A DNA stretch of 13,526 nt, taken from UHGV virus genome UHGV-1806156. The stretch is one strand, 5' to 3'. The notes beneath the pieces are model-generated. The model was not told the origin of the DNA. It made no database searches and was given only the letters and a program-made list of their open reading frames with translations. The position numbers and the translations under genes were made by a program. Shown one piece after another: positions 1 through 13,526 of the stretch (within the stretch, counting starts at the first letter, position 1; each line of letters starts with the position of its first letter). Source of the stretch: a virus.

Positions 1-98
1 TAAGGGAAAAGCTTAACCCACAAATGAAAGCCTAAAGAGCATGAGCGACTCTTTAGGCAATCTGTGTGGGGAACATCGGAGCAGTATGTGAAGTATGA
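1..98. repeat. Left copy of a 98-bp direct repeat (same as 13429-13526)
   Basis: Positions 1-98 match 13429-13526 base for base except one T/C difference (position 54 vs 13482). The repeat runs to both window edges, so its full extent is unknown. Confidence 0.9.
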
Positions 99-630: not shown

Positions 631-780
631 GTGGAAATTACTGATGCAATAGCGATCATCAACCTGGCTGTACTGTGGTGCGGTGTTGCCTACATAGCCG
701 GAGTGACTGCAATCGACAATCTTGAAGAAAAAATGATAGATAAATACAAAAAGATTGTTGACAATTTGACGAATGTCTGA
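631..780 (+). CDS. Small ORF, 49 aa, GTG start, predicted single transmembrane helix (VEITDAIAIINLAVLWCGVAYIAGVTAIDNLEEKMIDKYKKIVDNLTNV)
   Basis: GGAGG at 621-625 sits 5 nt before GTG 631, stop TGA at 778-780. Hydrophobic N-terminal stretch. Below the 60-aa cutoff of the ORF track. Confidence 0.3.
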   Translation: MEITDAIAIINLAVLWCGVAYIAGVTAIDNLEEKMIDKYKKIVDNLTNV

Positions 781-786
781 TAAAAT
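758..786 (+). promoter_or_regulatory. Sigma70-like promoter candidate (-35 TTGACA 758-763, 17-bp spacer, -10 TAAAAT 781-786), likely driving the operon starting at 913
   Basis: Near-consensus hexamers with 17-bp spacing, about 125 bp upstream of ATG 913. Confidence 0.45.
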
Positions 787-912
787 ATAAAGCATAGGGT
801 AATTCTCATCATAGTGAATTTCCTTTAGTAGACTGGCGGGGGCTTGTCTTAAGTTCCCGTTTCTTTTTAATCATATATCGCACAGGTTAGTGAGCTGACA
901 GGAGATTGAATC

Positions 913-3767: not shown

Positions 3768-4004
3768 ATGAATACCTACGAAAAGATTTATCAAAAACTG
3801 GTTAAGGACTCCGAAGACACGCCCGAAGGGGTGACAGTAGGTCACCTGCCAGAGGCAGCGAAAGAGGGGGCCACCATTATTAAAAGTGGCTCCCACACAG
3901 AAGGCCTCTCAATCGAAGAGCTGGCGGAGAAATATAATATTGATAAAGAGGCCCTGAAAAGGGCTATTTCATTATCAAAATCTTTAAGACAGGGCGAGGT
4001 ATAA
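3768..4004 (+). CDS. Hypothetical protein, 78 aa, translationally coupled between the acidic protein and the tape measure gene
   Basis: Starts 1 nt after the preceding stop and ends 1 nt before ATG 4006. Confidence 0.45.
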   Translation: MNTYEKIYQKLVKDSEDTPEGVTVGHLPEAAKEGATIIKSGSHTEGLSIEELAEKYNIDKEALKRAISLSKSLRQGEV

Positions 4005-4005
4005 A

Positions 4006-6153
4006 ATGGCAATGAAGGAAGTAGCCAGACTAACAAACGTTATTTACTGGGACTCTGATAAATCCTCCTGGCGAAAAGAAGTTAAACGGCTTGAGGATTA
4101 TAAAAAATCCTGGAAGAAAGCTACCGACGATATAGCTAAAGCTGATTTTAAATCTAATCAGGCTGTGCTCAGAACACAAAGAACACGCGCTAAGGTGGAA
4201 GAGCAGATAGCCAGAGCTCAGAGGAAACAACAGGAAGCACAGAAGAAACAACGTGCTCAGGCTGTCAGCCGTCTGACCGGGGGCAACAATGCCGAACTTA
4301 ACTCTATGCGCAAGTTCTACCAACAACAAGCCAGAGAAGCCGCCAGACAACAAAAACTGTTAGATCGTAGTGTTGGAGATGTTCAGCACAGAAAAGCACG
4401 TGTAGGGGCCAACAGTGCACGAATCAGCAGCATGTTTGATGGCTCCCTGGTTGCTCAGTTCCAGGGGCGCATTCAAAGAGTTAATGCTGATTATGCTAAA
4501 GGGGCTATAAACCTGCAGACCTATAATCAGAGGATGGCCCGACTCAGATCTGAAATGAAGATGGCAACAGCCGAAGCCGGAAAATTCCAGAGCAGACTAG
4601 ACAGAGCTGCGGCCGCAGGCTCCAGGCTGCATGACAACCTGGGGAAACTGAATTCCACACTGGGCAAGATAGCCATTGGCCTTACTGCCGCTGGCTGGGG
4701 TGTTCAGCGTGCTGTTAGTGGTGCTATGGGTAGCCTTGCAGATCGCAACAGTGCTTATTTCGGCTTAATGTCACAGAACAAGGATGATAAATCAAAAACT
4801 GATCAGCAGATGGCTTTTATCAAGAACACAGCCTACACCTACGGGATGGATCAGCGTGAGATGGAAGGCGGCTACATGCGCTTTGCTGCAGCTACCCCCA
4901 CCATGAAGGAATCTGATAAGCAGGCTCTCTTTGAGGCTATGGCTATTAAAGGCCGCTCAGTGGGTGCTACTGGCGAGCAACAGAACAGGGCGCTTGTTGC
5001 GGTCCAACAAATGGCTTCAAAAAATAAAGTCATGGCGGAGGAGCTGCGTGGGCAGCTGGCAGAAGCCTTTGCAGGCTCACAACAGGACTTCCAACAGGCC
5101 GCTATTGATGCCGGAATCATCAAAAATACCCAGGAATTCGATAAAGCCCTTAAAGATGGCAAAATCACCCTGGACAAGCTACTTCCTTCCCTAGTGAAAA
5201 TTTGGGGTGCTGCAAAAGAAACTAAAGCTTTTGCTGAATCCATGAAACAGCCAGAAGTAGCAATGCAGCGCATGAAAAACAGCTTTAACGAGCTGGCGAT
5301 TCAGTTTATGGGTGTTGTGGATCCTGCGGATGGCGTTATTAGCTTATCTGAATCTCTGATCTCCATCTTTGAAGACCTCACCACTGATATGGACGGCAGC
5401 GGGAGCGCGGCAAAACAGTTCGGTGAGGCAGTCGGGTCTGCCATGCGTGAGATCATGTATTGGGTAGGCTTCGCTAAGGGATATATTGAGGTCAAGGCTA
5501 AAGAGTTCGGCATGACCGGATCAGAGGTTGGCGAGCTTATCGGGAAACTGGTAGTCGGCTTAGCTGGTCTGAAAGTTATTACCACACTGCTTTCCCCTCT
5601 AACCGGATTTGTTTCACTTGTCACCCAACTGATTTCTCTGATAGGCAAGATTCCAGGTCTGGGCAATCTCGTTAAGGGTGCTGGCGGGGCAGTCGCTGGA
5701 AGCCCAACAACAGCATTAGCCGCTGGCAGTGCCGCAGGTGTGGGTGTTGGTGTCGCTGGCGCACTAGGCGCTAAGACGGTAGGTGAGAAGTTCAGAGGAT
5801 GGATGCAAAGCAAGGCTGATCAGTTCGGGGAGTGGGCTAAATCTAAAGGCCTGCTTAGCGATGAACAGGACGCTATGACCAAACCGGGGGCCTATAACCA
5901 TAGCTACATCAACAAGGGAGCTTCCTTTAATCCATATCCAACCATTAGCCCTTCACGTCCTACTCCTAGCACTGGTACGGCTATTCAGAATGGCGGATAT
6001 CAACCAGTCCAAGTAAATGTAGCCCCACAAGGTGAGATTTCCGGCAAATGGGAGATAACCATCGATGAGGGGGGAATTGCCAGGGTGATCCAGAAGGAAG
6101 TTAGCGATCAGTTGGATTGGAAAGCCACACAGGAATCTAACCAGCTTTTCTAA
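4006..6153 (+). CDS. Phage tail tape measure protein-like, 715 aa
   Basis: Long Q/R/K/A-rich helical N-terminal region, a central segment that reads like a tape-measure domain (AAATPTMKESDKQALFEAMAIKGRSVGATGEQQNRALVAVQQMASKNKVMAEELRGQLAEAF), and a Gly/Ala-rich hydrophobic block (LAGLKVITTLLSPLTGFVSLVTQLISLIGKIPGLGNLVKGAGGAVAG...). Recognised by eye, not by search. Confidence 0.6.
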   Translation: MAMKEVARLTNVIYWDSDKSSWRKEVKRLEDYKKSWKKATDDIAKADFKSNQAVLRTQRTRAKVEEQIARAQRKQQEAQKKQRAQAVSRLTGGNNAELNSMRKFYQQQAREAARQQKLLDRSVGDVQHRKARVGANSARISSMFDGSLVAQFQGRIQRVNADYAKGAINLQTYNQRMARLRSEMKMATAEAGKFQSRLDRAAAAGSRLHDNLGKLNSTLGKIAIGLTAAGWGVQRAVSGAMGSLADRNSAYFGLMSQNKDDKSKTDQQMAFIKNTAYTYGMDQREMEGGYMRFAAATPTMKESDKQALFEAMAIKGRSVGATGEQQNRALVAVQQMASKNKVMAEELRGQLAEAFAGSQQDFQQAAIDAGIIKNTQEFDKALKDGKITLDKLLPSLVKIWGAAKETKAFAESMKQPEVAMQRMKNSFNELAIQFMGVVDPADGVISLSESLISIFEDLTTDMDGSGSAAKQFGEAVGSAMREIMYWVGFAKGYIEVKAKEFGMTGSEVGELIGKLVVGLAGLKVITTLLSPLTGFVSLVTQLISLIGKIPGLGNLVKGAGGAVAGSPTTALAAGSAAGVGVGVAGALGAKTVGEKFRGWMQSKADQFGEWAKSKGLLSDEQDAMTKPGAYNHSYINKGASFNPYPTISPSRPTPSTGTAIQNGGYQPVQVNVAPQGEISGKWEITIDEGGIARVIQKEVSDQLDWKATQESNQLF

Positions 6154-6204
6154 TATTGTGATCAAAATCAATAAGTTAGCCTGACCGGATAAACTCCAGG
6201 CAAG

Positions 6205-6242
6205 AAAAAAGCCCCTAAGTGTTAACAAAGGGGCTCTTCTCC
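6205..6242. terminator. Hairpin terminator between convergent operons (stem AGCCCCT 6210-6216 / AGGGGCT 6229-6235)
   Basis: 7-bp GC-rich stem with 12-nt loop. On the minus strand it is followed by a run of six T (plus-strand A 6205-6210); on the plus strand by a weaker T-rich tract. Confidence 0.5.
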
Positions 6243-6266
6243 GGTATCCTTTTGATGCGGGGCGAA

Positions 6267-6310
6267 CCTGCTAACAAAAATCAACCTCTCGCGAGACTAA
6301 TGTTAGCAGG
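6267..6310. other. Stem-loop with perfect 10-bp stem (CCTGCTAACA / TGTTAGCAGG) whose 24-nt loop carries TCAACCTCTCGCGAGA
   Basis: Inverted repeat read directly. The loop contains the 10-bp palindrome TCTCGCGAGA and matches the leader motif at 10547 and 11089. Confidence 0.4.
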
Positions 6311-6655
6311 TTGCCGGAAGGTAAGTCAACTCCGGCCTATAAACCTTAAAGCGACTATAAAATCGCCCCGCCAATTGTGATGATCCGACCTTTGAGGCGG
6401 GTCCGGTGCCCAGGGGGGTGCAGTGATGCACAAACCAGGCAACGATAAACAGGCTAACAGTGATAGCGGCGCTCTCTCAGCGCACTAAATCCTAACCAGT
6501 CCGGGAAAGAGGCTGGCTCTATCGACCGCTCATGCACGGGACAATGCATACCTGATAAAGGATTCTCACAAGGGACCAATCGCGAGAAAAAGAAGTGGAA
6601 AGGGGCTGATTTGTGGTGTATCACTACGGCCTCAAAAGAACACTATTGTCTTTTT

Positions 6656-7114
6656 TCAGCCTCTCCCAACATTTGACCAGTATTTGATTGCACCGATCAA
6701 ATCATCATAGTGGCGCATTGCATCATTGAAGCCTTTATAGCTTGCCCATTGTGGGGAAACCTTGTTATTGCTGAATTGCCCACTAATCAGGATAGTCTCC
6801 AGAATGTCGGCATATCGCTTACCAATACGCTTTCTGACGGCCTCAGAGCTCCCACCCTTTACGATTGCATTAATCAGGGCTTTTGTGTGTCTCAGGCTCT
6901 CATAGAGCATTGCAGCGTGGGCAGATTCCATAAAGGAGCGCTTAGGCAAATCACCCCACCCCTCAGAGTGGATAGCCGCCAGTGTGGCGTAATTCAGGCC
7001 GCTATAGTGCTTTCCGTCATCCCAGCCAACCGCTACACCTTCCATCTGTGAGAGCTCTTTATGCAGCTTATCCATCATGCGCTTGTCTATGGTGCAACGG
7101 ACTTTCGGACTCAT
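6656..7114 (-). CDS. HK97 gp10-like head-tail (neck) family protein, 152 aa
   Basis: Segment GVAVGWDDGKHYSGLNYATLAAIHSEGWGDLPKRSF fits the pattern I associate with the HK97 gp10 family. GGAG RBS upstream; ATGA overlap with the preceding gene. Confidence 0.45.
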   Translation of the reverse strand: MSPKVRCTIDKRMMDKLHKELSQMEGVAVGWDDGKHYSGLNYATLAAIHSEGWGDLPKRSFMESAHAAMLYESLRHTKALINAIVKGGSSEAVRKRIGKRYADILETILISGQFSNNKVSPQWASYKGFNDAMRHYDDLIGAIKYWSNVGRG

Positions 7115-7914
7115 TTGTTGATCTCCGTGATGTCATCAAGCAACATGTTGGCCTTATCAATCATCGTTTCGTGGAATTCATTCGACACAACAGACTTATC
7201 ACCTGCGGCAATCTTTCCAGCTGCCTCTCCCTGTGCATATTCCCCGCGATGCTTAGCCCTGGTAGATTTCGTAGCAGCATTGCCAGCGTTACTACCCTCT
7301 TTAGCACTGTTAACAGCACCCTTTTGCTGTGTTTTATTCACCTTCTTACTGTTAGTGAAAACTCCGGCATTTTCGACCATCTTCACCTTGAAGGTGCGGA
7401 ATTCTTCAAAGGTGCAATCGATAGTGATGCAGTCACCGGAGGAAGAGCTACGCTTAACTTCACATTTCGTCATGATGAAGTTCTCAAGGAGTCCGGCATC
7501 TTCACTCACCAGGCTAACCAGCTGGCGCTTGTCTCTCATTTCCATAAGTGCCTGAACAGCGGCAGCAGGGCGCATAGATTCACGGGGATTATCTGGATCA
7601 GTGTTCCGGTCGATGTAGTTCTCTTTCCGGATAATGTGAGGGGAAGAGGTAATAATACCCGTAAAGCTGACAGATTTATCTTTAATGACGGCATGGTCTG
7701 ACATGGTGGTGCCATCTTCTACTGCATAGCTCGACTTTTCGACAGGGAACGAATAACGAACATCAGAGATAGAGTCAAAGAAGATAGCCACATTATCGGT
7801 ATAGTTGAAGCCATCCATTATATTTTTGTTTTGTGAATATCCCCCACACATAACAGTGAATGCGGGAGATCTCGACTCAGCTTGTTTTGCAGCTGTCAGA
7901 GCATCACTAGCCAT
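7111..7914 (-). CDS. Hypothetical protein, 267 aa (start placed at the ATG at 7914)
   Basis: Minus ORF 7111..7941 begins at a GTG; the in-frame ATG at 7914 has GGAGG 10 nt upstream. Normal amino-acid composition, unlike the Cys/Ser/Leu-rich plus-strand ORFs it overlaps. Confidence 0.55.
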   Translation of the reverse strand: MASDALTAAKQAESRSPAFTVMCGGYSQNKNIMDGFNYTDNVAIFFDSISDVRYSFPVEKSSYAVEDGTTMSDHAVIKDKSVSFTGIITSSPHIIRKENYIDRNTDPDNPRESMRPAAAVQALMEMRDKRQLVSLVSEDAGLLENFIMTKCEVKRSSSSGDCITIDCTFEEFRTFKVKMVENAGVFTNSKKVNKTQQKGAVNSAKEGSNAGNAATKSTRAKHRGEYAQGEAAGKIAAGDKSVVSNEFHETMIDKANMLLDDITEINK

Positions 7915-8042
7915 AGTAAACATGCCTCCAAATTGGTCCACTTCATGGATTTGGCTAAAGCCAAACCTGCAAAAGATGCAGGCAAAATAGAACTTATCGT
8001 TGCCCTGCGTGAATTCTGATAAAAAGACAGGGCTATCTATCG

Positions 8043-8303
8043 TTATTTTGCAAAACGATTATGCGCATTCAGGGCTTTTTTGCGGTCCTGGGCTTGTTTG
8101 CGTGCAATAAAATGTTCGAAAGTCTCGGCCCAGGTGCATTTATTATATTCACGGTATTTATGCATAGCCTGGCGGCTAACGTCATAGCAGGCGGCAAATG
8201 TGGAGATACGCAGGAATTCCGGCAGATCCTCGTCATCGATATGGATAATATCAAAAGGCACGTCGTCACGGTCGCCGTATAAAACAATTTTCATAAAAGA
8301 CAC
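8043..8303 (-). CDS. Small HTH DNA-binding protein, 86 aa
   Basis: GAGGTG RBS upstream of ATG 8303. HTH-like segment LRISTFAACYDVSRQAMHKY. Role unknown. Confidence 0.5.
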   Translation of the reverse strand: MSFMKIVLYGDRDDVPFDIIHIDDEDLPEFLRISTFAACYDVSRQAMHKYREYNKCTWAETFEHFIARKQAQDRKKALNAHNRFAK

Positions 8304-8327
8304 CTCAAAAACTTAAGACGGGGATAA

Positions 8328-8377
8328 CAAAAAAGGGAAGAGGGAAAGACCTATCCCCGATCTCTCACCTCTTCCCT
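8328..8377 (-). terminator. Hairpin terminator just downstream of the capsid gene (stem AGGGAAGAGG 8334-8343 / CCTCTTCCCT 8368-8377)
   Basis: 10-bp stem followed on the minus strand by a T run (plus-strand A 8328-8333), immediately after the capsid stop at 8384-8386. Confidence 0.45.
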
Positions 8378-8383
8378 TTGCTT

Positions 8384-9418
8384 TTATTTAGCCTTGGCAG
8401 CGGCGGCGGTGTTTTTAACACTCACTTTCACCACAACTTCAGGCATCATGTTCATGAAAGCATAAGAGGATTCAACGAAGATTTCGCGTTTGCCTCTGGA
8501 CTCTTCCATATACATGAAAGCTTCACGTGCAGCGCCGTTTGCCAGCTTCAGGTTGCGAGCGCAAGGGCCGAAAAATTGAGTATAAACGCCCACCATATCG
8601 CCTAACGCATGCGGCTGGAACTGTGGGACTAGATAAGCAGTATTCTCTGGCAGACTATCCATTTGCACCACACGCAGGGCTAAGCCCGGAATGCGGAAGG
8701 TCGGGAAGCCCGGCAGAATATCCTCAGGGAACATCAGACCTTTGTCGGTAATGTTCTGATTGCCGAACAACAGCACTTTACGGAGCAGTTCATCAGTCTG
8801 AATAGCGGTAAACAGTTCAGCACGGCAGAACAGGGTGAAACCACGCAGGGCACGAACGACACCACGCTGTTTAACCTTGCTCAGTGCAACCAGGTCCTGC
8901 AGCTGTTTAAGGATATCTTTAGCTAGATCCACTTCTGAAGTGGTTTGCTGTGCGCCCAGCAGTTCGCACACATTCAGTTCTTTACCCTTGGTGAGGATAA
9001 TTTTGTTCTCAAAGAGAGCAAGCTGGCGTGCTTCTTCGTGGGTCTGGCGTAAGCCTTCGCCAAGCTGAATAACACGACGAGCGGTTACAGACTCTAGATT
9101 CTCTTCGGAATCTTTGCCCGGAACACGGATACCCTGCCAGTCAGAAGGATAAATAGCACTTGATGCGGCAGTGAATGCCATATCACCCGTGCCCGTTTCA
9201 CGCTCATCTGCGGTAATGGTCGCCATCTGTTCACCGTAGCGCGGATACTGACCGAAAGCGGTTTGTTTCACCTGGCGAACTTTGTCATATTCAAATTTAA
9301 AGGTATTGCACAGAGCAGTAGTGTTGAAGATATCCATTGCAGAAATAATCATGTTATCCGGCGGGATATCTTTAATCAGACCACACAGATCGCGAACTTC
9401 GAATTCTTTCTTAGCCAT
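8384..9418 (-). CDS. Major capsid protein, lambda gpE family-like, 344 aa
   Basis: ATG at 9418 with AAGGAGG RBS 8 nt upstream; the track's extension to 9517 has no RBS. N-terminus FEVRDLCGLIKDIPPDN fits the L-x-G-x-[IV]-x-x-x-PP pattern seen in gpE-family capsids. Size (lambda gpE is 341 aa) and a small beta-rich gene directly upstream agree. Confidence 0.6.
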   Translation of the reverse strand: MAKKEFEVRDLCGLIKDIPPDNMIISAMDIFNTTALCNTFKFEYDKVRQVKQTAFGQYPRYGEQMATITADERETGTGDMAFTAASSAIYPSDWQGIRVPGKDSEENLESVTARRVIQLGEGLRQTHEEARQLALFENKIILTKGKELNVCELLGAQQTTSEVDLAKDILKQLQDLVALSKVKQRGVVRALRGFTLFCRAELFTAIQTDELLRKVLLFGNQNITDKGLMFPEDILPGFPTFRIPGLALRVVQMDSLPENTAYLVPQFQPHALGDMVGVYTQFFGPCARNLKLANGAAREAFMYMEESRGKREIFVESSYAFMNMMPEVVVKVSVKNTAAAAKAK

Positions 9419-9429
9419 TTTCAACCTCC

Positions 9430-9765
9430 TTATTGTGCAACACGCAAATCGCCATTGCTGGCAGCAACAACAGCGGCTAAGCCGTCTTTGTCCACATAGG
9501 CCGGATTGATGTAGCAACCTTTGTTCGCAACAACGATAAAGGAATCACCAACTTCAGCACGTTCTACAACCAGCAGCGGAGTTTTATCTGTGTGCGTTGC
9601 TTTAACGAAGGTCTCAACCTCGCCAGCCTCAGTCACCACAACAACAGTGCCAGCCGGAATCTCAGCCTTAACTTTGTTTTTAACTTCAACGTCGCGAATA
9701 CTAAATTGCTCATCTGCGGCGTATGAAATGATGTGTCCGCGTGTGCGGATAGTCATATCTCTCAT
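9430..9765 (-). CDS. Putative head decoration protein (lambda gpD-like), 111 aa
   Basis: AGGTGA RBS before ATG 9765. Small, beta-rich (Val/Thr/Ala/Gly), immediately upstream of the capsid gene as in lambda D-E. Assignment is positional and compositional. Confidence 0.4.
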   Translation of the reverse strand: MRDMTIRTRGHIISYAADEQFSIRDVEVKNKVKAEIPAGTVVVVTEAGEVETFVKATHTDKTPLLVVERAEVGDSFIVVANKGCYINPAYVDKDGLAAVVAASNGDLRVAQ

Positions 9766-10093
9766 TTGATCACCTGCGATTTAAATTAACTCCCCTCAAA
9801 GGGCTCAGGTATAACCTCTCAAACCACGACAGGCTCGGGCCGAAAAGTTATGCCGGAAATCTAAAGGGGGATTGATATAAGGAGAGGGAGATAGCCCCGC
9901 ACCGTCCAAGCGGGGGCTATTCCACATGGGGAAACCAACAACAGTTGGCTGATAGTTCACTGCATGGTTACAGGTTGCTAGAGAGCACTATCACGAAAGG
10001 CACTCCCCCGGATCAGTTCAGGCTGCGGTCACATCAGCGGGGAAATACCTTTCGGGATAGCTACCCACACAGAAAACCCGCAAAAGAAAACTG

Positions 10094-10102
10094 TGTGGAT
10101 AA
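10094..10102 (-). promoter_or_regulatory. DnaA box (TTATCCACA on the minus strand) inside an inverted repeat (CCACACAG 10065-10072 / CTGTGTGG 10091-10098)
   Basis: Exact 9-mer match to the DnaA box consensus, read directly. Confidence 0.35.
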
Positions 10103-10248
10103 CTAGCCCTGTAGGGAGAATAAGGAGAATTAATCGACCACTCTAAGATGATCATGGGTAGTGTTATTTATAAGGCGGCACCGCTACCTGGTCGCCTTTA
10201 CTTTGGAGGAAAATACGGCAAATCACCTTCGCTAAATGATTCACGGTA

Positions 10249-10268
10249 TACTGTATATTATATCAGTA
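10249..10268. promoter_or_regulatory. LexA (SOS) box-like palindrome TACTGTATATTATATCAGTA
   Basis: CTG-N10-CAG architecture with flanking TA and an AT-rich core, as in gammaproteobacterial LexA boxes. Lies in the large intergenic region between the capsid operon and the small-peptide operon. Confidence 0.45.
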
Positions 10269-10546
10269 TTTACTCACATTGTCAACACCCTGATTATATA
10301 AATTCTAATAATTAGCGTAGTAACGGTATTTTCAGACTGCTATCAATCCCATCAATACGTCATCTCATCGCATCTATCATAACTTTTTCATTCGTGATAG
10401 ATATCTTTTGATCAATATCAATGTTTTCCGGGGATTTGCCCGGCTATAGTTCGAATCAAGGAAGGGGAGCATTGATAGAGACACCCAAAGGGGTGACTGA
10501 AAGTCACCTGGCATAGCCAGTGAAAGCACCCAACCGAACAAACAAA

Positions 10547-10564
10547 TCAACTTCTCGCAAAAGG
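10547..10564 (+). promoter_or_regulatory. Conserved leader motif TCAACTTCTCGCAAAAGG, 26 nt upstream of ATG 10573
   Basis: Repeated with the same spacing upstream of ATG 11115 (11089-11107); a third variant sits in the hairpin loop at 6281-6296. Confidence 0.4.
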
Positions 10565-10572
10565 TGATAGTT

Positions 10573-10695
10573 ATGGGTATCAAGAACAGTGCCAGCGCAT
10601 GGCAAAAGGCCAGGTTTCATCACCCACACATTGTTAAGGCAATTGAGGTGGTTGGAGTTTTAGCCCTGATGTTAGCTCTGTGTGTGGAGGTGTGA
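10573..10695 (+). CDS. Small hydrophobic peptide, 40 aa (MGIKNSASAWQKARFHHPHIVKAIEVVGVLALMLALCVEV)
   Basis: AAGGTG RBS before ATG 10573; C-terminal hydrophobic helix. Below the ORF-track cutoff. Confidence 0.35.
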   Translation: MGIKNSASAWQKARFHHPHIVKAIEVVGVLALMLALCVEV

Positions 10696-10696
10696 G

Positions 10697-10777
10697 ATGG
10701 GCAAAGGAGGCAAAGCATTTTTAATAGGTCTGGCTATCCTGGATGTTCTACTAATCATGATTAAGCGGAGTTTATGA
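10697..10777 (+). CDS. Small hydrophobic peptide, 26 aa (MGKGGKAFLIGLAILDVLLIMIKRSL)
   Basis: ATG 10697 starts 1 nt after the previous stop, with AGGTG just upstream. One predicted TM helix and a basic C-terminus. Confidence 0.3.
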   Translation: MGKGGKAFLIGLAILDVLLIMIKRSL

Positions 10778-10796
10778 ACAGCATTGAGAGGAGTTT

Positions 10797-11057
10797 ATGA
10801 CGGGGGCTAAAGATATCAGGAGACTGAGGGAAGAGCTGATAGCTGAAATTAAAACTAAGGCAAAGCAAATGGAGATAGCCGCACAAATGGATGTAGCGGA
10901 ACAGATGTACAAGATGGTTGAGGAGGGAACGCCACGACAGGTTATCGCTAAAACCTTCGGTGTGGGGATCGCCACCGTGCACAGAAGGCTGAAAGCATAT
11001 GCTGACTACCACAATATCGAGAGAAAGGAGGATGGGAGATTCAGGAAAGCTAAATGA
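10797..11057 (+). CDS. Small DNA-binding protein with a Hin/resolvase-type C-terminal HTH, 86 aa, no recombinase catalytic domain
   Basis: GAGAGGAG RBS before ATG 10797. C-terminus EEGTPRQVIAKTFGVGIATVHRRLKA closely matches the Hin invertase HTH; the N-terminus is a short charged helix only. Confidence 0.55.
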   Translation: MTGAKDIRRLREELIAEIKTKAKQMEIAAQMDVAEQMYKMVEEGTPRQVIAKTFGVGIATVHRRLKAYADYHNIERKEDGRFRKAK

Positions 11058-11088
11058 TGTAAACGGTCCAACAGGTTACTAACTTAAT

Positions 11089-11107
11089 TCAACTTCTCGC
11101 AAAGGGG
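11089..11107 (+). promoter_or_regulatory. Second copy of the leader motif (TCAACTTCTCGCAAAGGGG), 26 nt upstream of ATG 11115
   Basis: 15/15 identity with the copy at 10547 over TCAACTTCTCGCAAA, same distance to the start codon. Confidence 0.4.
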
Positions 11108-11114
11108 TACCACT

Positions 11115-11702
11115 ATGAACATTAAAACTATCATTGCAGCCCTCACCATTGCCTTTAGTGCCAACACCGCAGCTATTGATGTAGGGGCCGTAAAAGATGC
11201 ATCTTGTGCTGATAAACTGGCGGCACTTGATGCGGGATTCGATGCACCCCAGGGCTATCAAATGGGGCTATCTCTTAAAAATATTATTCTCCCCATGGAA
11301 TCTGGCGCTTATGTATACGGAGCGATAGGAAAACTGGAGAAGCCGGAAATTGACCTGCAGGGTGTGAGAGCGAAGATCACTAAAAGAAATGAAAGCCTTT
11401 GTGATGTAGCTGAAATAGCTTTCATGTCAGACGATGAAAAATCTATTTTAGTCTTTTGCAAAGATAGCGATGATAATGATCGCTTCTTTAAGATCACCCA
11501 CAACAGGCCAATCTCTTTCTACTCTAATGCTACTATGGGCGCGGGTATGCAGTGGCTGAAGAGAGCTAAATTAACTGAGATCGACATTGAAAAAGAGGCC
11601 AATGCAGGCAGTTATGGATTCTGGAAAGGCTGGACTAAATACACGTTCCAACAATGCGGCATCGATAGTCAGGCCTACGACAACGGATTTTGGTTTTTCT
11701 AA
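11115..11702 (+). CDS. Secreted or outer-membrane protein with N-terminal signal peptide, 195 aa
   Basis: N-terminus MNIKTIIAALTIAFSANTAA has the basic/hydrophobic/A-x-A shape of a Sec signal peptide. C-terminus ends in aromatics (GFWFF), as many outer-membrane beta-barrels do. No family recognised. Confidence 0.55.
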   Translation: MNIKTIIAALTIAFSANTAAIDVGAVKDASCADKLAALDAGFDAPQGYQMGLSLKNIILPMESGAYVYGAIGKLEKPEIDLQGVRAKITKRNESLCDVAEIAFMSDDEKSILVFCKDSDDNDRFFKITHNRPISFYSNATMGAGMQWLKRAKLTEIDIEKEANAGSYGFWKGWTKYTFQQCGIDSQAYDNGFWFF

Positions 11703-11722
11703 CCTACTAAGTTAATCCCGCC

Positions 11723-11750
11723 AGGGGGCCATCACGGCCCCTTTTTATTT
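11723..11750 (+). terminator. Rho-independent terminator after the signal-peptide gene
   Basis: GC-rich stem GGGGGCC (11724-11730) / GGCCCC (11736-11741) with 5-nt loop, followed by TTTTTATTT. Confidence 0.55.
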
Positions 11751-11800
11751 ATCCCCTATTTAACCCCTATTTAATGGGTATTTAATGCCTATTTATTGAT
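11746..11800. repeat. Five tandem 11-bp units of form TATTTAANNNN (helically phased A/T tracts)
   Basis: TATTTATCCCC, TATTTAACCCC, TATTTAATGGG, TATTTAATGCC, TATTTATTGAT read directly; an 11-bp period suggests bent DNA or phased binding sites. Confidence 0.5.
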
Positions 11801-13063
11801 TTAATCCGTTTTATGCCACAACCGCCCGGTTGACAGAGTAAGATAGAGTGTGTAACCCTCTTTCGTAATACCAATAAAATCAATAGTTTAGCTCAATTGG
11901 CCTTTTCTCTATTTTTGTCAAATTTAACATACCCTCAAAAACTGCAAAATCTGGCTGCAAGATTATCTGCAGCTGGATTTCTTGCGCCTCAATTTGTGGT
12001 ATCACCCTGACTAGTTTGTGCATAAATTGAACAGTTTTTAACATTTCCTCCTCACCTGGTAACCACACAAAAAGCTAAAAACGAGGCACAGATAATCTTA
12101 GAGGCCTGTTTTCTTGTTATCACTCTGGTAACGTCGTAGAAGTGATTTTGATGAAAGATGACCTACCCTATTACACCCCCATTTTTTGTTATCACAATTG
12201 CATCCTGTGCGGTGTATGGCTATGTGCTGAAAGCGGTCTTATGTGTGGGTGTCAGAAATATCCATTAGCGGTATTAATACCCGTCGGAGATTCGTCTGAG
12301 GTGCCAGGCAGGCGCTCCCCCACCTCCCTTTTTTCTTCTAACAATTCTCAAATATCACACCACTGCCCACCACGTTGCTATTATGTTAATTCTTAAGCTT
12401 TGCTGTATGTTGTGCACATTATTTATTCAGGTGGCTGTACGTAAATTCTGTGCCCACTGATCATGATTTTTAAATCAGATTTTGTAGTGCGCTTTATTAG
12501 TGTAGATAAGATCTATTATGTTAAATGCATCTCTCTCAACACTTAAAATCAATGACTTAGAGGTTAGGATGCACTAACACCCCACACAGCACATTAGACA
12601 TATAGATGTCTATACCCCACATTTTTGATTGTTTTGTAGTCATTCCCCTGATCATTTAACCAGTATAGTTTGCTCCCTGCAGACCACAAAATCGGAATTT
12701 ACATCTGATTAACATAATCTGTTAGCATGATCACCATTACCCACACAACAATAACCACATGTAAGCCTCTTCAGGCAATTTATCGGCGTGTTGGTGTGAA
12801 CAGTCTTTCATGTTCTTTATGTATTCATTGTCCTGTGTGAGGGAAGGATGGACTGCCCCAGGGGCCATACTTATGATGCCCGGTCAACATACCTGTCGAT
12901 AAAATCAAAGGGTGTTGATCTGCATATTTCCCACACATGAGAGGAAATCAAAGCAAAGAGAGAGGAGAGAGGTTTGTTAGTCAAAATAGGTCAATAAGGG
13001 TGTATTTCCACACAGACATGATGAGATAACCTGTCGGTATTTCCTACAACTCTTGCACATACC

Positions 13064-13341
13064 CCGGAAGATTTTTCCGGTGTCTCCCACCTGTGAAGAA
13101 TTTTCACACCTGTAAATCCATACAGCACGGTAAAAACTACCGCACCACCTGTGAAAATATTTTACTACTCCCTTTAGTCATACCCCTTTCAGTCATACTC
13201 AGGCACCACACCCCGGTAAATATTTCCCTACCACCCCGGAGAATTTCTCCGGTGTCCAAGCTGTATCCAATACATACCCCGGAAAATTTCTCCGCACTAC
13301 TACGGAAGATTTCTCCGGTGTACCCCGGAAGATTTCTCCGA
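13064..13341. repeat. Iteron-like array of at least 8 copies of a 17-bp quasi-palindrome (consensus about CCGGARRATTTCTCCGG)
   Basis: Copies at 13064-13080, 13236-13252 (perfect palindrome CCGGAGAATTTCTCCGG), 13279-13295, 13302-13318 and 13325-13341, the last three spaced exactly 23 bp apart. Related variants at about 13094-13108, 13150-13164 and 13214-13226. Confidence 0.6.
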
Positions 13342-13428
13342 CTAATAAATAAAGTAATAGACCACACAATAGATCCCCCCTAACCCCCAAGGGGAATGGG
13401 GAGGGATCAGAGAGTGGGGAAGGTTTTC

Positions 13429-13526
13429 TAAGGGAAAAGCTTAACCCACAAATGAAAGCCTAAAGAGCATGAGCGACTCTTCAGGCAATCTGTGTGGGGA
13501 ACATCGGAGCAGTATGTGAAGTATGA
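13429..13526. repeat. Right copy of the 98-bp direct repeat
   Basis: Matches 1-98 with one mismatch (C at 13482 vs T at 54). Confidence 0.9.

What the first reader, a model, noticed from the sequence alone, without database searches (positions are those of the whole stretch)
6154..6655. 500-bp structured non-coding region between convergent operons, with a hairpin displaying the leader motif
Beyond the terminator, this gap has a perfect 10-bp-stem hairpin (6267-6310) whose loop holds TCAACCTCTCGCGAGA, a second hairpin (GCCGGA / TCCGGC, 6313-6336) and further GC-rich palindromes. I found no convincing ORF. If transcribed from the minus strand, the loop would be complementary to the leader motif at 10547 and 11089 over about 12 nt, allowing one G-U pair. 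That suggests a trans-acting antisense RNA, a decoy for a motif-binding protein, or the element's cos/pac site.
Basis: partly seen in the sequence, partly recalled or inferred. Interest (0 to 1): 0.55.

Follow-up and report, generated by a model that had tools for sequence, protein, structure and literature searches.

The report
Conserved structured RNA locus in satellite plasmid
The 500-bp gap between the two late operons of this small phage-satellite-like E. coli plasmid is most likely an RNA locus: a long, highly structured non-coding RNA of a family absent from Rfam that is shared with very distant integrated relatives, probably paired with a short antisense RNA that targets two mRNA leaders.

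Summary
The hairpin is 12 bp (6265-6276/6301-6312). Its 24-nt loop carries TCAACCTCTCGC, the second hairpin is at 6313-6336, and the motif occurs three times against 0.10 expected by chance.

The hairpins belong to one larger fold. It has a 5' three-way junction (6257-6371), a ~200-nt core closed by a long-range helix (6375-6386/6560-6571), and a 3' tail. A relative whose neighbouring protein is 50% identical keeps every helix with a different sequence.

The core also lies at one end of ~13-kb integrated capsid-gene islands next to tRNA-Gly or tRNA-Leu. Their proteins are only 20-28% identical to this plasmid's. A covariance model built from those islands alone finds window 6370-6575 (E 6e-7).

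Wobble pairs fall almost only on the + strand, so the fold is a + strand RNA. No Rfam family matches, and no phage DNA is similar.

On the minus strand, the same hairpin holds a sigma-70-like promoter that is conserved in the distant relative. A strong terminator lies 90 nt downstream. Together they predict a ~93-nt sRNA whose first 15 nt pair with both leaders.

Antisense and decoy readings are therefore plausible; cos/pac is not supported. No expression data exist.

The parts
6200..6240 (.). Bidirectional intrinsic terminator. The stem is 6210-6216/6229-6235 with a 12-nt loop. The A-run 6203-6208 reads as UUUUUUCUU after the stem on the minus strand; UCUUCUCC follows the stem on the + strand. 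It ends the tape-measure operon (+) and any minus-strand transcript, including the candidate sRNA.
   Evidence: Rfam aligns it on the minus strand as a hairpin plus U-run (ctRNA-like, below threshold). It is conserved in L007 with a different loop.
6222..6250 (+). Promoter-like site TTAACA-17-TATCCT. The predicted start is about 6257, the first base of the outer stem of the structured RNA.
   Evidence: The GGTATC block is conserved in L007. An analogous site in island L024 ends about 7 nt before that RNA. This is a consensus match only.
6257..6371 (+). 5' three-way-junction domain, found only in the plasmid forms. It comprises an outer stem (6257-6264/6364-6371), hairpin 1 (6265-6276/6301-6312) and hairpin 2 (6313-6318/6331-6336), plus a single-stranded stretch with two CTATAAA repeats (6337, 6355).
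   Evidence: L007 keeps all three helices with other sequences (GCTGATA/TATCAGC, GCTGTTAG/CTAACAGC, CCGC/GCGG). C6336T gives a G-U pair on the + strand in three relatives. locates the repeats.
6277..6300 (+). Loop of hairpin 1, carrying AAATCAACCTCTCGC. This is the same sequence as the two mRNA leaders and includes the palindrome TCTCGCGAGA. AACCTCTCGCG is kept in L007.
6370..6575 (+). Core domain of the RNA family shared with integrated islands.
- P1: 6375-6386/6560-6571
- P2: 6387-6390/6400-6403
- P3a: 6418-6422/6427-6431
- Pa: 6496-6501/6511-6516, loop CGGGAAAGA
- Pb: 6532-6536/6545-6549
   Evidence: The covariance model built from island copies alone hits 6370-6575 on the + strand (29.5 bits, E 5.7e-7, full length). 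Covariation is shown.
6576..6656 (+). 3' tail. It holds a segment UCGCGAGA (6580-6587) complementary to the loop of hairpin 1 (6287-6294), a terminal hairpin (6602-6608/6627-6633, two G-U pairs on the + strand), a conserved CUAUUG, and a U-run at 6651-6656.
   Evidence: L007 pairs UCUCGCGU with ACGCGGGA, with a compensated end pair and one U-G. Searches show the conserved tail.
6300..6329 (-). Sigma-70-like promoter on the minus strand. The -35 TTGACT (6329-6324) is the conserved loop of hairpin 2. After an 18-nt spacer comes TGcTAACAT (-10 at 6305-6300).
   Evidence: L007 has TTGACT-16-TGtTAGTAT at the homologous place, the only promoter-like site in its 600 nt.
6200..6292 (-). Candidate ~93-nt antisense sRNA. 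Its 5'-GCGAGAGGUUGAUUU is complementary to the leader motif, and it ends in the terminator hairpin and U-tail.
   Evidence: One search gives the fold, and shows that the best + strand targets of its first 30 nt outside its own locus are the two leaders (-30.1 and -27.6 kcal/mol; all windows average -16.7, sd 4.35). Expression was not tested.
10544..10575 (+). Leader 1: AAATCAACTTCTCGC, then the Shine-Dalgarno AAGGTGA and the ATG at 10573. It precedes two small hydrophobic peptides (40 aa and 26 aa) and an 86-aa helix-turn-helix gene.
11086..11117 (+). Leader 2: AATTCAACTTCTCGC, then the Shine-Dalgarno and the ATG at 11115. It precedes a 195-aa protein with a signal-peptide-like N-terminus. Relatives have different genes behind the same leader.

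Best explanation
The gap is an RNA locus.

**Shown**
- Its helices are maintained by compensatory changes.
- Its wobble pairs lie on the + strand.
- The core belongs to an RNA family, absent from Rfam, that is the best-conserved feature of a superfamily of small capsid/tail-gene-carrying, satellite-like elements of Enterobacteriaceae. These exist as plasmids or as islands at tRNA-Gly, tRNA-Leu and other sites.

**Inferred**
- The product is a + strand non-coding RNA running from about 6257 to about 6655.
- The opposite strand of hairpin 1 carries its own promoter and gives a ~93-nt sRNA (6292 to about 6200).
- The first 15 nt of that sRNA pair with the sequence just upstream of the Shine-Dalgarno of two + strand genes. 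One set encodes small hydrophobic peptides. Pairing there would repress their translation.
- The long + strand RNA shows the same 15 nt in the exposed loop of hairpin 1 and is fully complementary to the sRNA's 5' end. It would therefore be the sRNA's entry site and competitor (a sponge or decoy), or its third target.
- What the universal core does is not known. Its extreme conservation suggests it binds a conserved host or helper factor.

**My probabilities for the separate steps**
- Structured + strand RNA of a new family: about 0.85.
- The minus-strand sRNA exists: about 0.45.
- The sponge/competitor relation holds: about 0.3.
For: **Conservation**
- The gap is 97.4-99.2% identical in relatives whose whole plasmids are 92-96% identical over 81-92% of the length.
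- Against L008 it is 95.6% identical (6200-6650). The tape-measure gene is 80%, the 6154-6199 spacer 74%, the capsid gene 71% and the Dit-like gene 67%.

**Structure**
- All nine helices checked in the window exist in L007 with changed sequences. The seven non-Watson-Crick pairs apart from one U-C mismatch are G-U on the + strand.
- Across 16 island copies, 94.5% of cells are paired. Nine pairs changed on both sides, against 3.9 +/- 1.2 in shuffles (0 of 500 shuffles reach 9) and 1-3 in slid controls.
- In helices P1, Pa and Pb there are 31 G-U pairs on the + strand against 1 A-C.
- P1 exists in at least five sequence versions.

**Homology**
- Model R1, built only from island copies, finds window 6370-6575 on the + strand at full length (E 5.7e-7). 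It also finds L007 (7e-13) and L008 (4e-6).
- Apart from a 37-nt stretch of this RNA, no DNA is shared with the islands. Their capsid and Dit-like proteins are 20-28% identical to this plasmid's.

**Not coding, not a known RNA**
- Indels of 1-2 nt break both ORFs over 50 aa.
- No Rfam match appears and no tRNA.

**Orientation in the islands**
- The RNA is co-oriented with the adjacent tRNA in 8 of 8 cases.
- It is also co-oriented with nearly all island genes.

**The sRNA**
- The promoter is found in the window and at the homologous place in L007.
- Seed-to-leader pairing ranks top in the plasmid.
- The motif is kept in front of the Shine-Dalgarno of both conserved and swapped genes in all plasmid relatives.
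- Small hydrophobic peptides lie behind leader 1.
Against: - There is no transcript evidence for either strand.
- Minimum-free-energy folding does not favour the + strand. The window folds at -166 (+) against -178 (-) kcal/mol, and the island copies split evenly.
- The 5' domain rests on only two diverged lineages, and its own strand signal is weak. One G-U event favours the + strand, and one terminal A-C pair favours the minus strand.
- G-U counts among island copies are not independent events.
- Promoter-like sites are common by chance (3 found against 1.3 expected per kb).
- If the sRNA starts in the loop it cannot form hairpin 1, so the sRNA does not explain why the stems covary.
- Complementarity between the RNA's own 3' tail and the leaders is no better than chance.
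- The islands have the core but neither the 5' domain nor the leader motif. The leader circuit therefore cannot be the core's function.
- E-values from the shortened calibration of the model are rough.
Confidence: 0.5

Rival explanations
1. Only the minus strand matters. The gap would be the long structured 3' end of the minus-strand late operon plus a short antisense sRNA. The sRNA represses the two leaders, and no functional + strand RNA exists.
For: - The canonical terminator has its U-run on the minus strand.
- The minus strand folds slightly better by free energy.
- A conserved minus-strand promoter is present.
- The seed forms a 15-bp duplex with the leaders.
- Minus-strand terminators also sit on the tRNA side of the core in several islands (sequences).
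Against: - Wobble pairs in covarying helices lie on the + strand (7:0:1, further cases). On the minus strand they would be A-C mismatches. The terminal hairpin, for example, would have 2 mismatches in 7 pairs.
- In the islands the element is co-oriented with the tRNA and the downstream genes.
- The covariance model hits every copy on the strand that corresponds to window +.
Confidence: 0.15
2. The motif is a protein-binding site, and the hairpin loop is a decoy or third operator. A translational repressor or a DNA-binding regulator, such as the 86-aa helix-turn-helix protein encoded behind leader 1, would bind AAATCAACYTCTCGC at the two leaders and in the loop. No antisense RNA would be involved.
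For: - The same sequence occurs on the same strand at all three sites.
- The loop copy is displayed single-stranded on a 12-bp stem in the + strand fold.
- The motif sits 4 nt upstream of the Shine-Dalgarno in front of unrelated genes.
- A helix-turn-helix gene lies in the operon behind leader 1.
Against: - No candidate RNA-binding protein was identified.
- The motif boundary coincides with the predicted start of the minus-strand sRNA, which this model leaves unexplained.
- Only the loop copy is palindromic. The leaders lack the second half-site expected for a dimeric helix-turn-helix protein.
Confidence: 0.2
3. The element is the packaging signal (cos or pac) that lets a helper phage's terminase package the plasmid or island.
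For: - The plasmid has capsid, tape-measure, Dit-like and tail-completion genes but no terminase or portal. It must therefore carry a packaging site somewhere.
- This region is the only non-coding DNA shared across the superfamily.
- In the islands it sits at the end opposite the integrase and next to a cargo hotspot. In Gram-negative PICIs the end distal to the integrase is where cos sites have been mapped (PMC10111431).
- Two of about 11 assemblies are linearised inside it, which is a weak hint.
Against: - No similarity exists to any of 50,697 phage records, even at E 10.
- Compensatory helices, a long-range closing helix and strand-specific G-U pairs are not properties of double-stranded terminase sites.
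- The plasmid has more than 3 kb of other non-coding DNA that could hold the site.
Confidence: 0.1
4. The core is a cis-acting leader RNA, for example a processive antiterminator working like HK022 put. It would let RNA polymerase read through the long one-directional gene array of the islands.
For: - In the islands the RNA starts a few nt after a promoter-like site.
- It lies at the very start of a ~12-kb array of co-oriented genes.
- A conserved hairpin followed by GCUCU resembles the boxB-boxA order of rrn antiterminators. This is my recollection and was not tested.
- Conservation beyond that of the proteins would fit binding to host RNA polymerase.
Against: - In the plasmids no + strand gene follows the RNA. 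It faces the 3' end of a convergent operon.
- Size and architecture differ from put, which is about 70 nt with two stem-loops (PMC9378689).
- No sequence match to put or nut was found.
Confidence: 0.15

Closest known systems
P4 CI RNA / P1-P7 c4 RNA (Rfam C4 and IsrK families): immunity RNAs of a satellite and of phage-plasmids
   Same: Both are small-element-encoded regulatory RNAs that act by short base-pairing with repeated sequences in mRNA leaders just upstream of ribosome-binding sites. P4 is also a satellite that can live as a plasmid or integrated at tRNA-Leu.
   Different: - There is no Rfam C4 or IsrK match.
- CI and c4 lie on the same strand as their targets and are processed from the same transcript. 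Here the complementary RNA would come from the opposite strand, 4 kb from its targets.
- The same-strand RNA carries a copy of the target, not its complement.
- The fold is about 400 nt and unrelated.
Sense/antisense RNA control loci of plasmids (hok/sok, CopA/CopT, RNA I/RNA II) and type I toxin-antitoxin pairs with trans-encoded sRNAs (tisB/istR-1, zor/orz)
   Same: - A short antisense RNA with a single-stranded 5' end is transcribed against the 5' part of a long structured RNA.
- It would meet that RNA at an exposed loop on a long stem.
- It ends at a strong terminator.
- One target operon encodes small hydrophobic peptides.
   Different: - No toxin ORF lies inside the long RNA.
- The replication initiator and iterons are elsewhere (1085-2038, 13060-13349), so this is not a copy-number control locus.
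- The peptide genes are 4 kb away.
- None of this has been tested experimentally.
SviR, the sRNA of Vibrio cholerae PLE satellites
   Same: It is a satellite-encoded regulatory RNA, mentioned in bioRxiv 10.1101/2020.03.12.988147 (listed).
   Different: It belongs to an unrelated satellite and host, and no sequence or structure relation was tested. SviR is described as acting on helper genes, whereas the targets proposed here are the element's own genes.
HK022 put RNAs (cis-acting antiterminator RNAs)
   Same: Both are structured nascent RNAs placed just downstream of a promoter at the start of a long operon, which is the situation of the core in the integrated islands.
   Different: put is about 70 nt with two stem-loops (PMC9378689). 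This core is about 200 nt with a closing helix and at least five internal helices. In the plasmids nothing follows it on the same strand.
cos sites of P4 and of Gram-negative PICIs
   Same: The position matches: a conserved non-coding block beyond the late genes, at the end distal to the integrase and near cargo genes.
   Different: No phage carries a similar sequence. The conservation pattern is that of base-paired RNA.

Membership tests
Any Rfam 15 family | The match reaches the family's gathering score | tested here: not met
   - Window at E up to 1 and the region at E up to 10: only sub-threshold terminator-like hits (ctRNA_p42d 23.6 bits against 50; Thr leader 21.7 against 55).
- 16 related loci at gathering thresholds: nothing on the element.
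- Island copy at E up to 10: nothing relevant.
C4 / IsrK (P4 CI, P1 c4) antisense RNAs | Match to Rfam C4 or isrK, with same-strand a'/b' or seqB boxes complementary to leader repeats | tested here: not met
   No C4 or isrK hit appears. The same-strand copy in the loop is identical, not complementary, to the leaders. The 3' tail does not single out the leaders.
New satellite-associated structured RNA family (defined here) | Full-length match to a covariance model built from independent members | tested here: met
   R1 was built from 14 island copies. It hits window 6370-6575 on the + strand at 29.5 bits, E 5.7e-7, covering model positions 1-180.
New satellite-associated structured RNA family (defined here) | Helices supported by compensatory changes beyond the controls | tested here: met
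   9 pairs changed on both sides against 3.9 +/- 1.2 in shuffles (0 of 500) and 1-3 in slid controls; window and L007 keep 9 helices with different sequences.
New satellite-associated structured RNA family (defined here) | It is transcribed as a discrete RNA | not testable with these tools
   No expression data are available. There are only promoter-like sites ending about 7 nt before the first helix.
Trans-acting base-pairing sRNA | Own promoter, single-stranded seed complementary to targets near the ribosome-binding site, and an intrinsic terminator with a U-tail | tested here: inconclusive
   - The promoter-like site is conserved in two lineages.
- The 15-nt seed ranks the two leaders as best targets.
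- The terminator is shown.
- All of this is by sequence only. The chance rate of promoter-like sites is high.
Intrinsic (Rho-independent) terminator | G+C-rich hairpin followed directly by a U-run | tested here: met
   A 7-bp GC-rich stem at 6210-6216/6229-6235 is followed on the minus strand by UUUUUUCUU. It aligns as hairpin plus U-run. The simple scan missed it because its loop is 12 nt, beyond the 8-nt limit. On the + strand the tail is only UCUUCUCC.
cos / pac packaging site | Sequence shared with the helper phage's own packaging site | tested here: not met
   No significant match in 50,697 phage records for the window region or for an island copy. The helper is unknown, so an unsequenced helper cannot be ruled out.
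cos / pac packaging site | Ends of virion DNA map to the site, and the site alone confers packaging | not testable with these tools
   This needs virion DNA sequencing or transduction assays.
HK022 put-type antiterminator RNA | About 70 nt, two stem-loops, just downstream of a promoter, acting in cis on RNA polymerase | tested here: not met
   The size (~200-nt core, ~400 nt in all) and the multi-helix architecture differ (against PMC9378689). Position fits only in the islands. Activity is not testable here.

The most novel reading that the evidence does not exclude
The ~200-nt core is a new class of large structured RNA. It would be the defining and most conserved component of a so far undescribed superfamily of capsid/tail-gene-carrying satellites, both plasmid and integrated. 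It would act directly on conserved host or helper machinery, for instance by making RNA polymerase termination-resistant, or by taking part in capsid assembly or DNA packaging when the helper is hijacked. The plasmid forms would have added a sense/antisense switch to it.
Probability: 0.2. Interest if true: 0.85.

Novelty: new variant of a known kind. Interest (0 to 1): 0.62.

Why it matters
Regulatory RNAs are central to the few well-studied satellites, such as P4 CI and PLE SviR. No RNA has been described for this group of small E. coli and Enterobacteriaceae elements that carry a capsid gene, and often tape-measure and Dit-like genes, but no terminase.

Here a structured RNA is better conserved than the capsid protein. 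It is found in plasmids and in islands at tRNA-Gly, tRNA-Leu and other sites, and those islands also carry defence cargo such as Kiwa and restriction-modification systems.

- It is a ready-made marker (model R1) for finding these elements.
- It is a candidate for the step at which they sense or exploit their helper.
- In the plasmid form it offers a compact, testable RNA circuit: a long RNA, an antisense sRNA, two leaders, and small membrane peptides.

If instead it proves to be an ordinary antisense regulator of accessory genes, it is still a new RNA family for Rfam.

Tried and rejected
- **Known RNA families and tRNA:** four Rfam scans and ARAGORN found nothing.
- **DNA similarity to phages:** none for the window, the region or an island copy.
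- **Protein-seeded locus search:** the neighbouring 152-aa protein gave no confirmed loci in viral or GTDB contigs. Its homologue search gave only five clusters.
- **Loosened DNA pattern:** CCGGGAAAGNGNNNNGCTCT in viral contigs returned about 120 loci. The unfiltered listing showed only recurrent, unrelated sequence contexts, and none passed the filter. That scan was wasted.
- **Strand choice by minimum free energy:** inconclusive.
- **RNAalifold consensus of the island copies:** it gave a rod-like fold. This conflicts with the local hairpin Pb, whose A-U/U-A switch co-occurs in 15 of 16 copies. I replaced it with a hand-built structure and tested that.
- **The + strand RNA's 3' tail as the antisense partner of the leaders:** rejected. 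Its best duplexes lie elsewhere in the plasmid.
- **Small ORFs in the gap or core:** rejected because of frameshifting indels and non-conserved peptides.
- **Replication origin:** unlikely. Iterons and the initiator lie elsewhere, and the core is shared by elements with different replication modules.
- **attP arm sites:** unlikely. The plasmids have no integrase yet keep the element.
- **CTATAAA repeats as a recurring promoter:** 4 copies against 2.1 expected, not significant.
- **Literature searches:** searches for this satellite type or its RNA found nothing.
Full report
**What the window is.** The 13,526 bases are a complete circular element of about 13.43 kb, assembled with a 98-nt overlap (1-98 = 13429-13526). 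Near-identical small E. coli plasmids exist in PLSDB, RefSeq and metagenomes: 92-96% identity over 81-92% of the length, with one record a 39.6-kb trimer.

The element encodes:
- an O-like replication initiator (1085-2038) with iterons at 13060-13349;
- a tape-measure protein (4006-6153, + strand);
- on the minus strand, a tail-completion/Neck1-like protein (6656-7114), a Dit-like protein (7111-7941) and a major capsid protein (8384-9517).

It has no terminase, portal or integrase. The nearest phage relatives of the tape-measure and capsid proteins are rV5-like myoviruses, at only about 25% identity. It therefore looks like a plasmid-borne phage satellite. That is an inference, and I found no paper describing it.

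**The observation.**
- The perfect stem is 12 bp (6265-6276/6301-6312). Its 24-nt loop contains TCAACCTCTCGCGAGA.
- The second hairpin is 6313-6318/6331-6336.
- The region folds better than shuffled sequence on both strands (z -3.8 and -4.8).
- The motif TCAACYTCTCGC occurs three times on the + strand (6281, 10547, 11089) against 0.10 expected.
- The two ORFs over 50 aa in the gap are broken by 1-2-nt indels among close relatives.

**Conservation.** The gap is the best-conserved part of the element.
- It is 97.4-99.2% identical in relatives whose plasmids differ much more elsewhere.
- Against the divergent plasmid L008, positions 6200-6650 are 95.6% identical. The tape-measure gene is 80%, the spacer 6154-6199 is 74%, the capsid gene 71% and the Dit-like gene 67%.

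**A larger fold.** A metagenomic relative, L007, has a neighbouring protein only 50% identical. It has a homologous gap in which every helix is kept with a different sequence:

| Helix | Window | L007 |
|---|---|---|
| Outer stem | GCGGGGCG/CGCCCCGC | GCTGATA/TATCAGC |
| Hairpin 1 | AACCTGCTAACA/TGTTAGCAGGTT | GCTGTTAG/CTAACAGC |
| Hairpin 2 | GCCGGA/TCCGGC | CCGC/GCGG |
| Long-range helix P1 (6375-6386/6560-6571) | TTGTGATGATCC/GGATTCTCACAA | TTTGAGATGATG/CATCATTTCGAA |
| Hairpin Pa | CCAGTC/GGCTGG | CTTATC/GATAAG |
| Terminal hairpin | GGGGCTG/CGGCCTC | GAGGCCG/CGGCCTC |

The loops are conserved: AACCTCTCGCG, TAAGTCAA and CGGGAAAGA. The loop of hairpin 1 (6287-6294) can also pair with 6580-6587. 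In L007 that pairing is kept through a compensated end pair and one U-G.

The junction sits directly in front of a ~200-nt domain closed by P1, and a structured tail follows.

**The core is shared with very distant elements.** A 30-nt pattern from hairpin Pa found copies in Citrobacter, Enterobacter, Kluyvera, Raoultella, Phytobacter, Scandinavium, Pseudocitrobacter, Klebsiella and E. coli.

Annotated examples show islands of about 13-15 kb with this order:
1. tRNA-Gly or tRNA-Leu;
2. the element;
3. variable cargo (restriction-modification, Kiwa, ImmA/IrrE, DUF1643);
4. a small recombinase;
5. replication genes;
6. a capsid gene, in one island (L012) followed by a 617-aa ORF without a Pfam match and a Dit-like gene;
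7. an integrase.

One copy (L010) lies about 400 nt beyond a prophage tail-fibre-assembly gene, and four others share its upstream sequence. The island capsid and Dit-like proteins are only 20-28% identical to those of the window, and no other DNA is shared.

- On 16 island copies, a hand-built structure (P1, P2, P3, P3a, Pa, Pb, Pc) has 94.5% of cells paired.
- Nine pairs changed on both sides, against 3.9 +/- 1.2 in shuffles (0 of 500) and 1-3 when partners are slid.
- A covariance model built from 14 island copies alone finds window 6370-6575 on the + strand at full length (29.5 bits, E 5.7e-7). It also finds L007 (7e-13), L015, L025 and L008.
- No Rfam family matches any copy.

**Which strand.** Free-energy comparison is uninformative. 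The wobble pairs are informative.
- In the window and L007, the seven non-Watson-Crick pairs apart from one U-C mismatch are G-U on the + strand.
- In P1, Pa and Pb of the island copies there are 31 G-U pairs on the + strand against 1 A-C. These copies are not independent.
- Single substitutions among close relatives also give + strand G-U pairs: C6336T in hairpin 2 and C6403T in P2, and a C-to-T change in P3a of L027.
- On the minus strand all of these would be A-C mismatches. The terminal hairpin would lose 2 of its 7 pairs.
- In the islands the element is co-oriented with the tRNA in 8 of 8 cases and with nearly all island genes.
- Promoter-like sites end about 7 nt before the first helix, both in the window (TTAACA-17-TATCCT, 6222-6250) and in island L024.

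I conclude that the fold is a + strand RNA of roughly 6257-6655. Expression is inferred, not shown.

**The leader motif and a possible antisense RNA.** In a + strand RNA the loop of hairpin 1 has the same sequence as the leaders, so it mimics them rather than complementing them. The motif lies 4 nt upstream of the Shine-Dalgarno. It is kept in every plasmid relative, even where the gene behind leader 2 has been replaced. Leader 1 precedes two small hydrophobic peptides of 40 aa and 26 aa.

On the minus strand, the conserved loop of hairpin 2 reads as a -35 element. TTGACT is followed after 18 nt by TGcTAACAT. L007 has TTGACT-16-TGtTAGTAT at the homologous place, the only promoter-like site in its 600 nt. 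Transcription would start at about 6292, exactly where similarity to the leaders ends. It would stop at the strong terminator, whose U-run is on the minus strand at 6208-6200.

The resulting ~93-nt RNA begins with 5'-GCGAGAGGUUGAUUU. That sequence pairs over 15 nt, with one G-U, with leader 1, and over 12 nt with leader 2. Outside its own locus, the two leaders are its best targets in the plasmid (-30.1 and -27.6 kcal/mol, against a mean of -16.7, sd 4.35).

However, an RNA starting in the loop cannot explain the covarying stems. Both RNAs may exist as a sense/antisense pair, with the long RNA's loop serving as entry site and competitor for the sRNA. The islands have the core but neither the 5' domain nor the motif. 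The leader circuit is therefore an add-on of the plasmid forms, not the function of the core.

**What the core does.** This remains open. Its conservation beyond that of the capsid protein, across elements with different integrases, replication modules and cargo, points to interaction with a conserved host or helper component.

- *Packaging site:* positionally attractive. It is not supported by similarity to any phage or by the RNA-type conservation pattern.
- *put-like cis antiterminator:* fits the islands but not the plasmids. It also fails on architecture.
- *Replication origin or attP arms:* unlikely, for the reasons listed under rejected ideas.

**Verdict.**
Antisense RNA and decoy are both plausible and may be two halves of one circuit. 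cos/pac is not supported.
- The main result goes beyond the finding. The gap encodes a member of a previously uncatalogued structured RNA family that marks a widespread, apparently undescribed group of satellite-like elements.
- The limits are the absence of any transcript data, only two diverged lineages for the 5' domain, non-independent copies in the counts, and rough E-values.

Noticed in passing
window 1-98 and 13429-13526: A 98-nt terminal direct repeat (one mismatch) shows that the window is a whole circular replicon of about 13.43 kb, assembled with an overlap.
   Followed up: partly
window 13060-13349: Five copies of a ~23-nt iteron (TACCCCGGAAGATTTCTCCGGTG, itself an inverted repeat), three of them spaced 23 nt apart. 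They lie about 1.2 kb upstream, across the circular junction, of the O-like initiator gene (1085-2038) and are probably the plasmid origin.
   Followed up: no
window 4006-9517: The gene set is that of a phage satellite rather than a plasmid: tape-measure, tail-completion-like, Dit-like and major capsid proteins, but no terminase, portal, protease or integrase. The nearest phage relatives of the capsid and tape-measure proteins are rV5-like lytic myoviruses at about 25% identity. I found no paper describing this type of element.
   Followed up: partly
window 10573-10777: Two small hydrophobic peptides lie directly behind leader 1: MGIKNSASAWQKARFHHPHIVKAIEVVGVLALMLALCVEV and MGKGGKAFLIGLAILDVLLIMIKRSL. 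They look like type I toxins or holin-like membrane peptides, and would be the first targets of the candidate sRNA.
   Followed up: partly
window 3815-3864 and 10477-10526: A 50-nt direct repeat (80% identical) contains two small hairpins. One copy lies inside the 78-aa ORF upstream of the tape-measure gene. The other is just upstream of leader 1 and is absent from several relatives (L001, L005, L006). It may be a duplicated gene fragment.
   Followed up: no
NZ_CP043822.1 (39,610 bp; hits H1/H6): One relative is deposited as a 39.6-kb record holding three copies of the element. It is either a true multimer or concatemer, or a long-read assembly artefact.
   Followed up: no
L024 15601-19022; L025 15314-22966; L028 15409-17306; L012 1227-1700: In the integrated relatives the stretch right after the RNA is a cargo hotspot with defence genes: Eco29kI and XcyI restriction-modification, ImmA/IrrE and DUF1643. 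Kiwa KwaAB lies further in, beyond the small recombinase. The hotspot is usually bounded by a small serine or tyrosine recombinase.
   Followed up: no
L025 15007-15126: This is a natural deletion variant of the RNA core in E. coli EcPF7. P1, P2 and P3 are kept, but the Pa-Pb section is missing (79.6 bits, E 1e-21). The conserved CCGGGAAAG hairpin may therefore be dispensable, or this copy may be decaying.
   Followed up: no
L010 4404-5668 (IMG/VR contig of 61.8 kb); also L011, L013, L016, L022: In L010 the element lies about 400 nt beyond the tail-fibre-assembly gene of a myovirus-type prophage (Baseplate_J, DUF2612, gpV-like). L011, L013, L016 and L022 share the same sequence upstream of the RNA, but their prophage context was not examined. 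This may be a helper-embedded configuration like that described for HE-PICIs (PMC10111431), and it is a lead to the helper.
   Followed up: partly
L002 (Klebsiella pneumoniae plasmid p2B30155, 120 kb) 5100-12037: A copy of the island sits next to chromosomal genes (sodB, purR, punC) carried on a large Klebsiella plasmid. This suggests a chromosomal segment, island included, was captured by the plasmid.
   Followed up: no
window 744-805 and 10238-10299: A 62-nt inverted repeat (71% complementary) links the region upstream of the initiator operon with the region upstream of leader 1. Its meaning is unknown.
   Followed up: no
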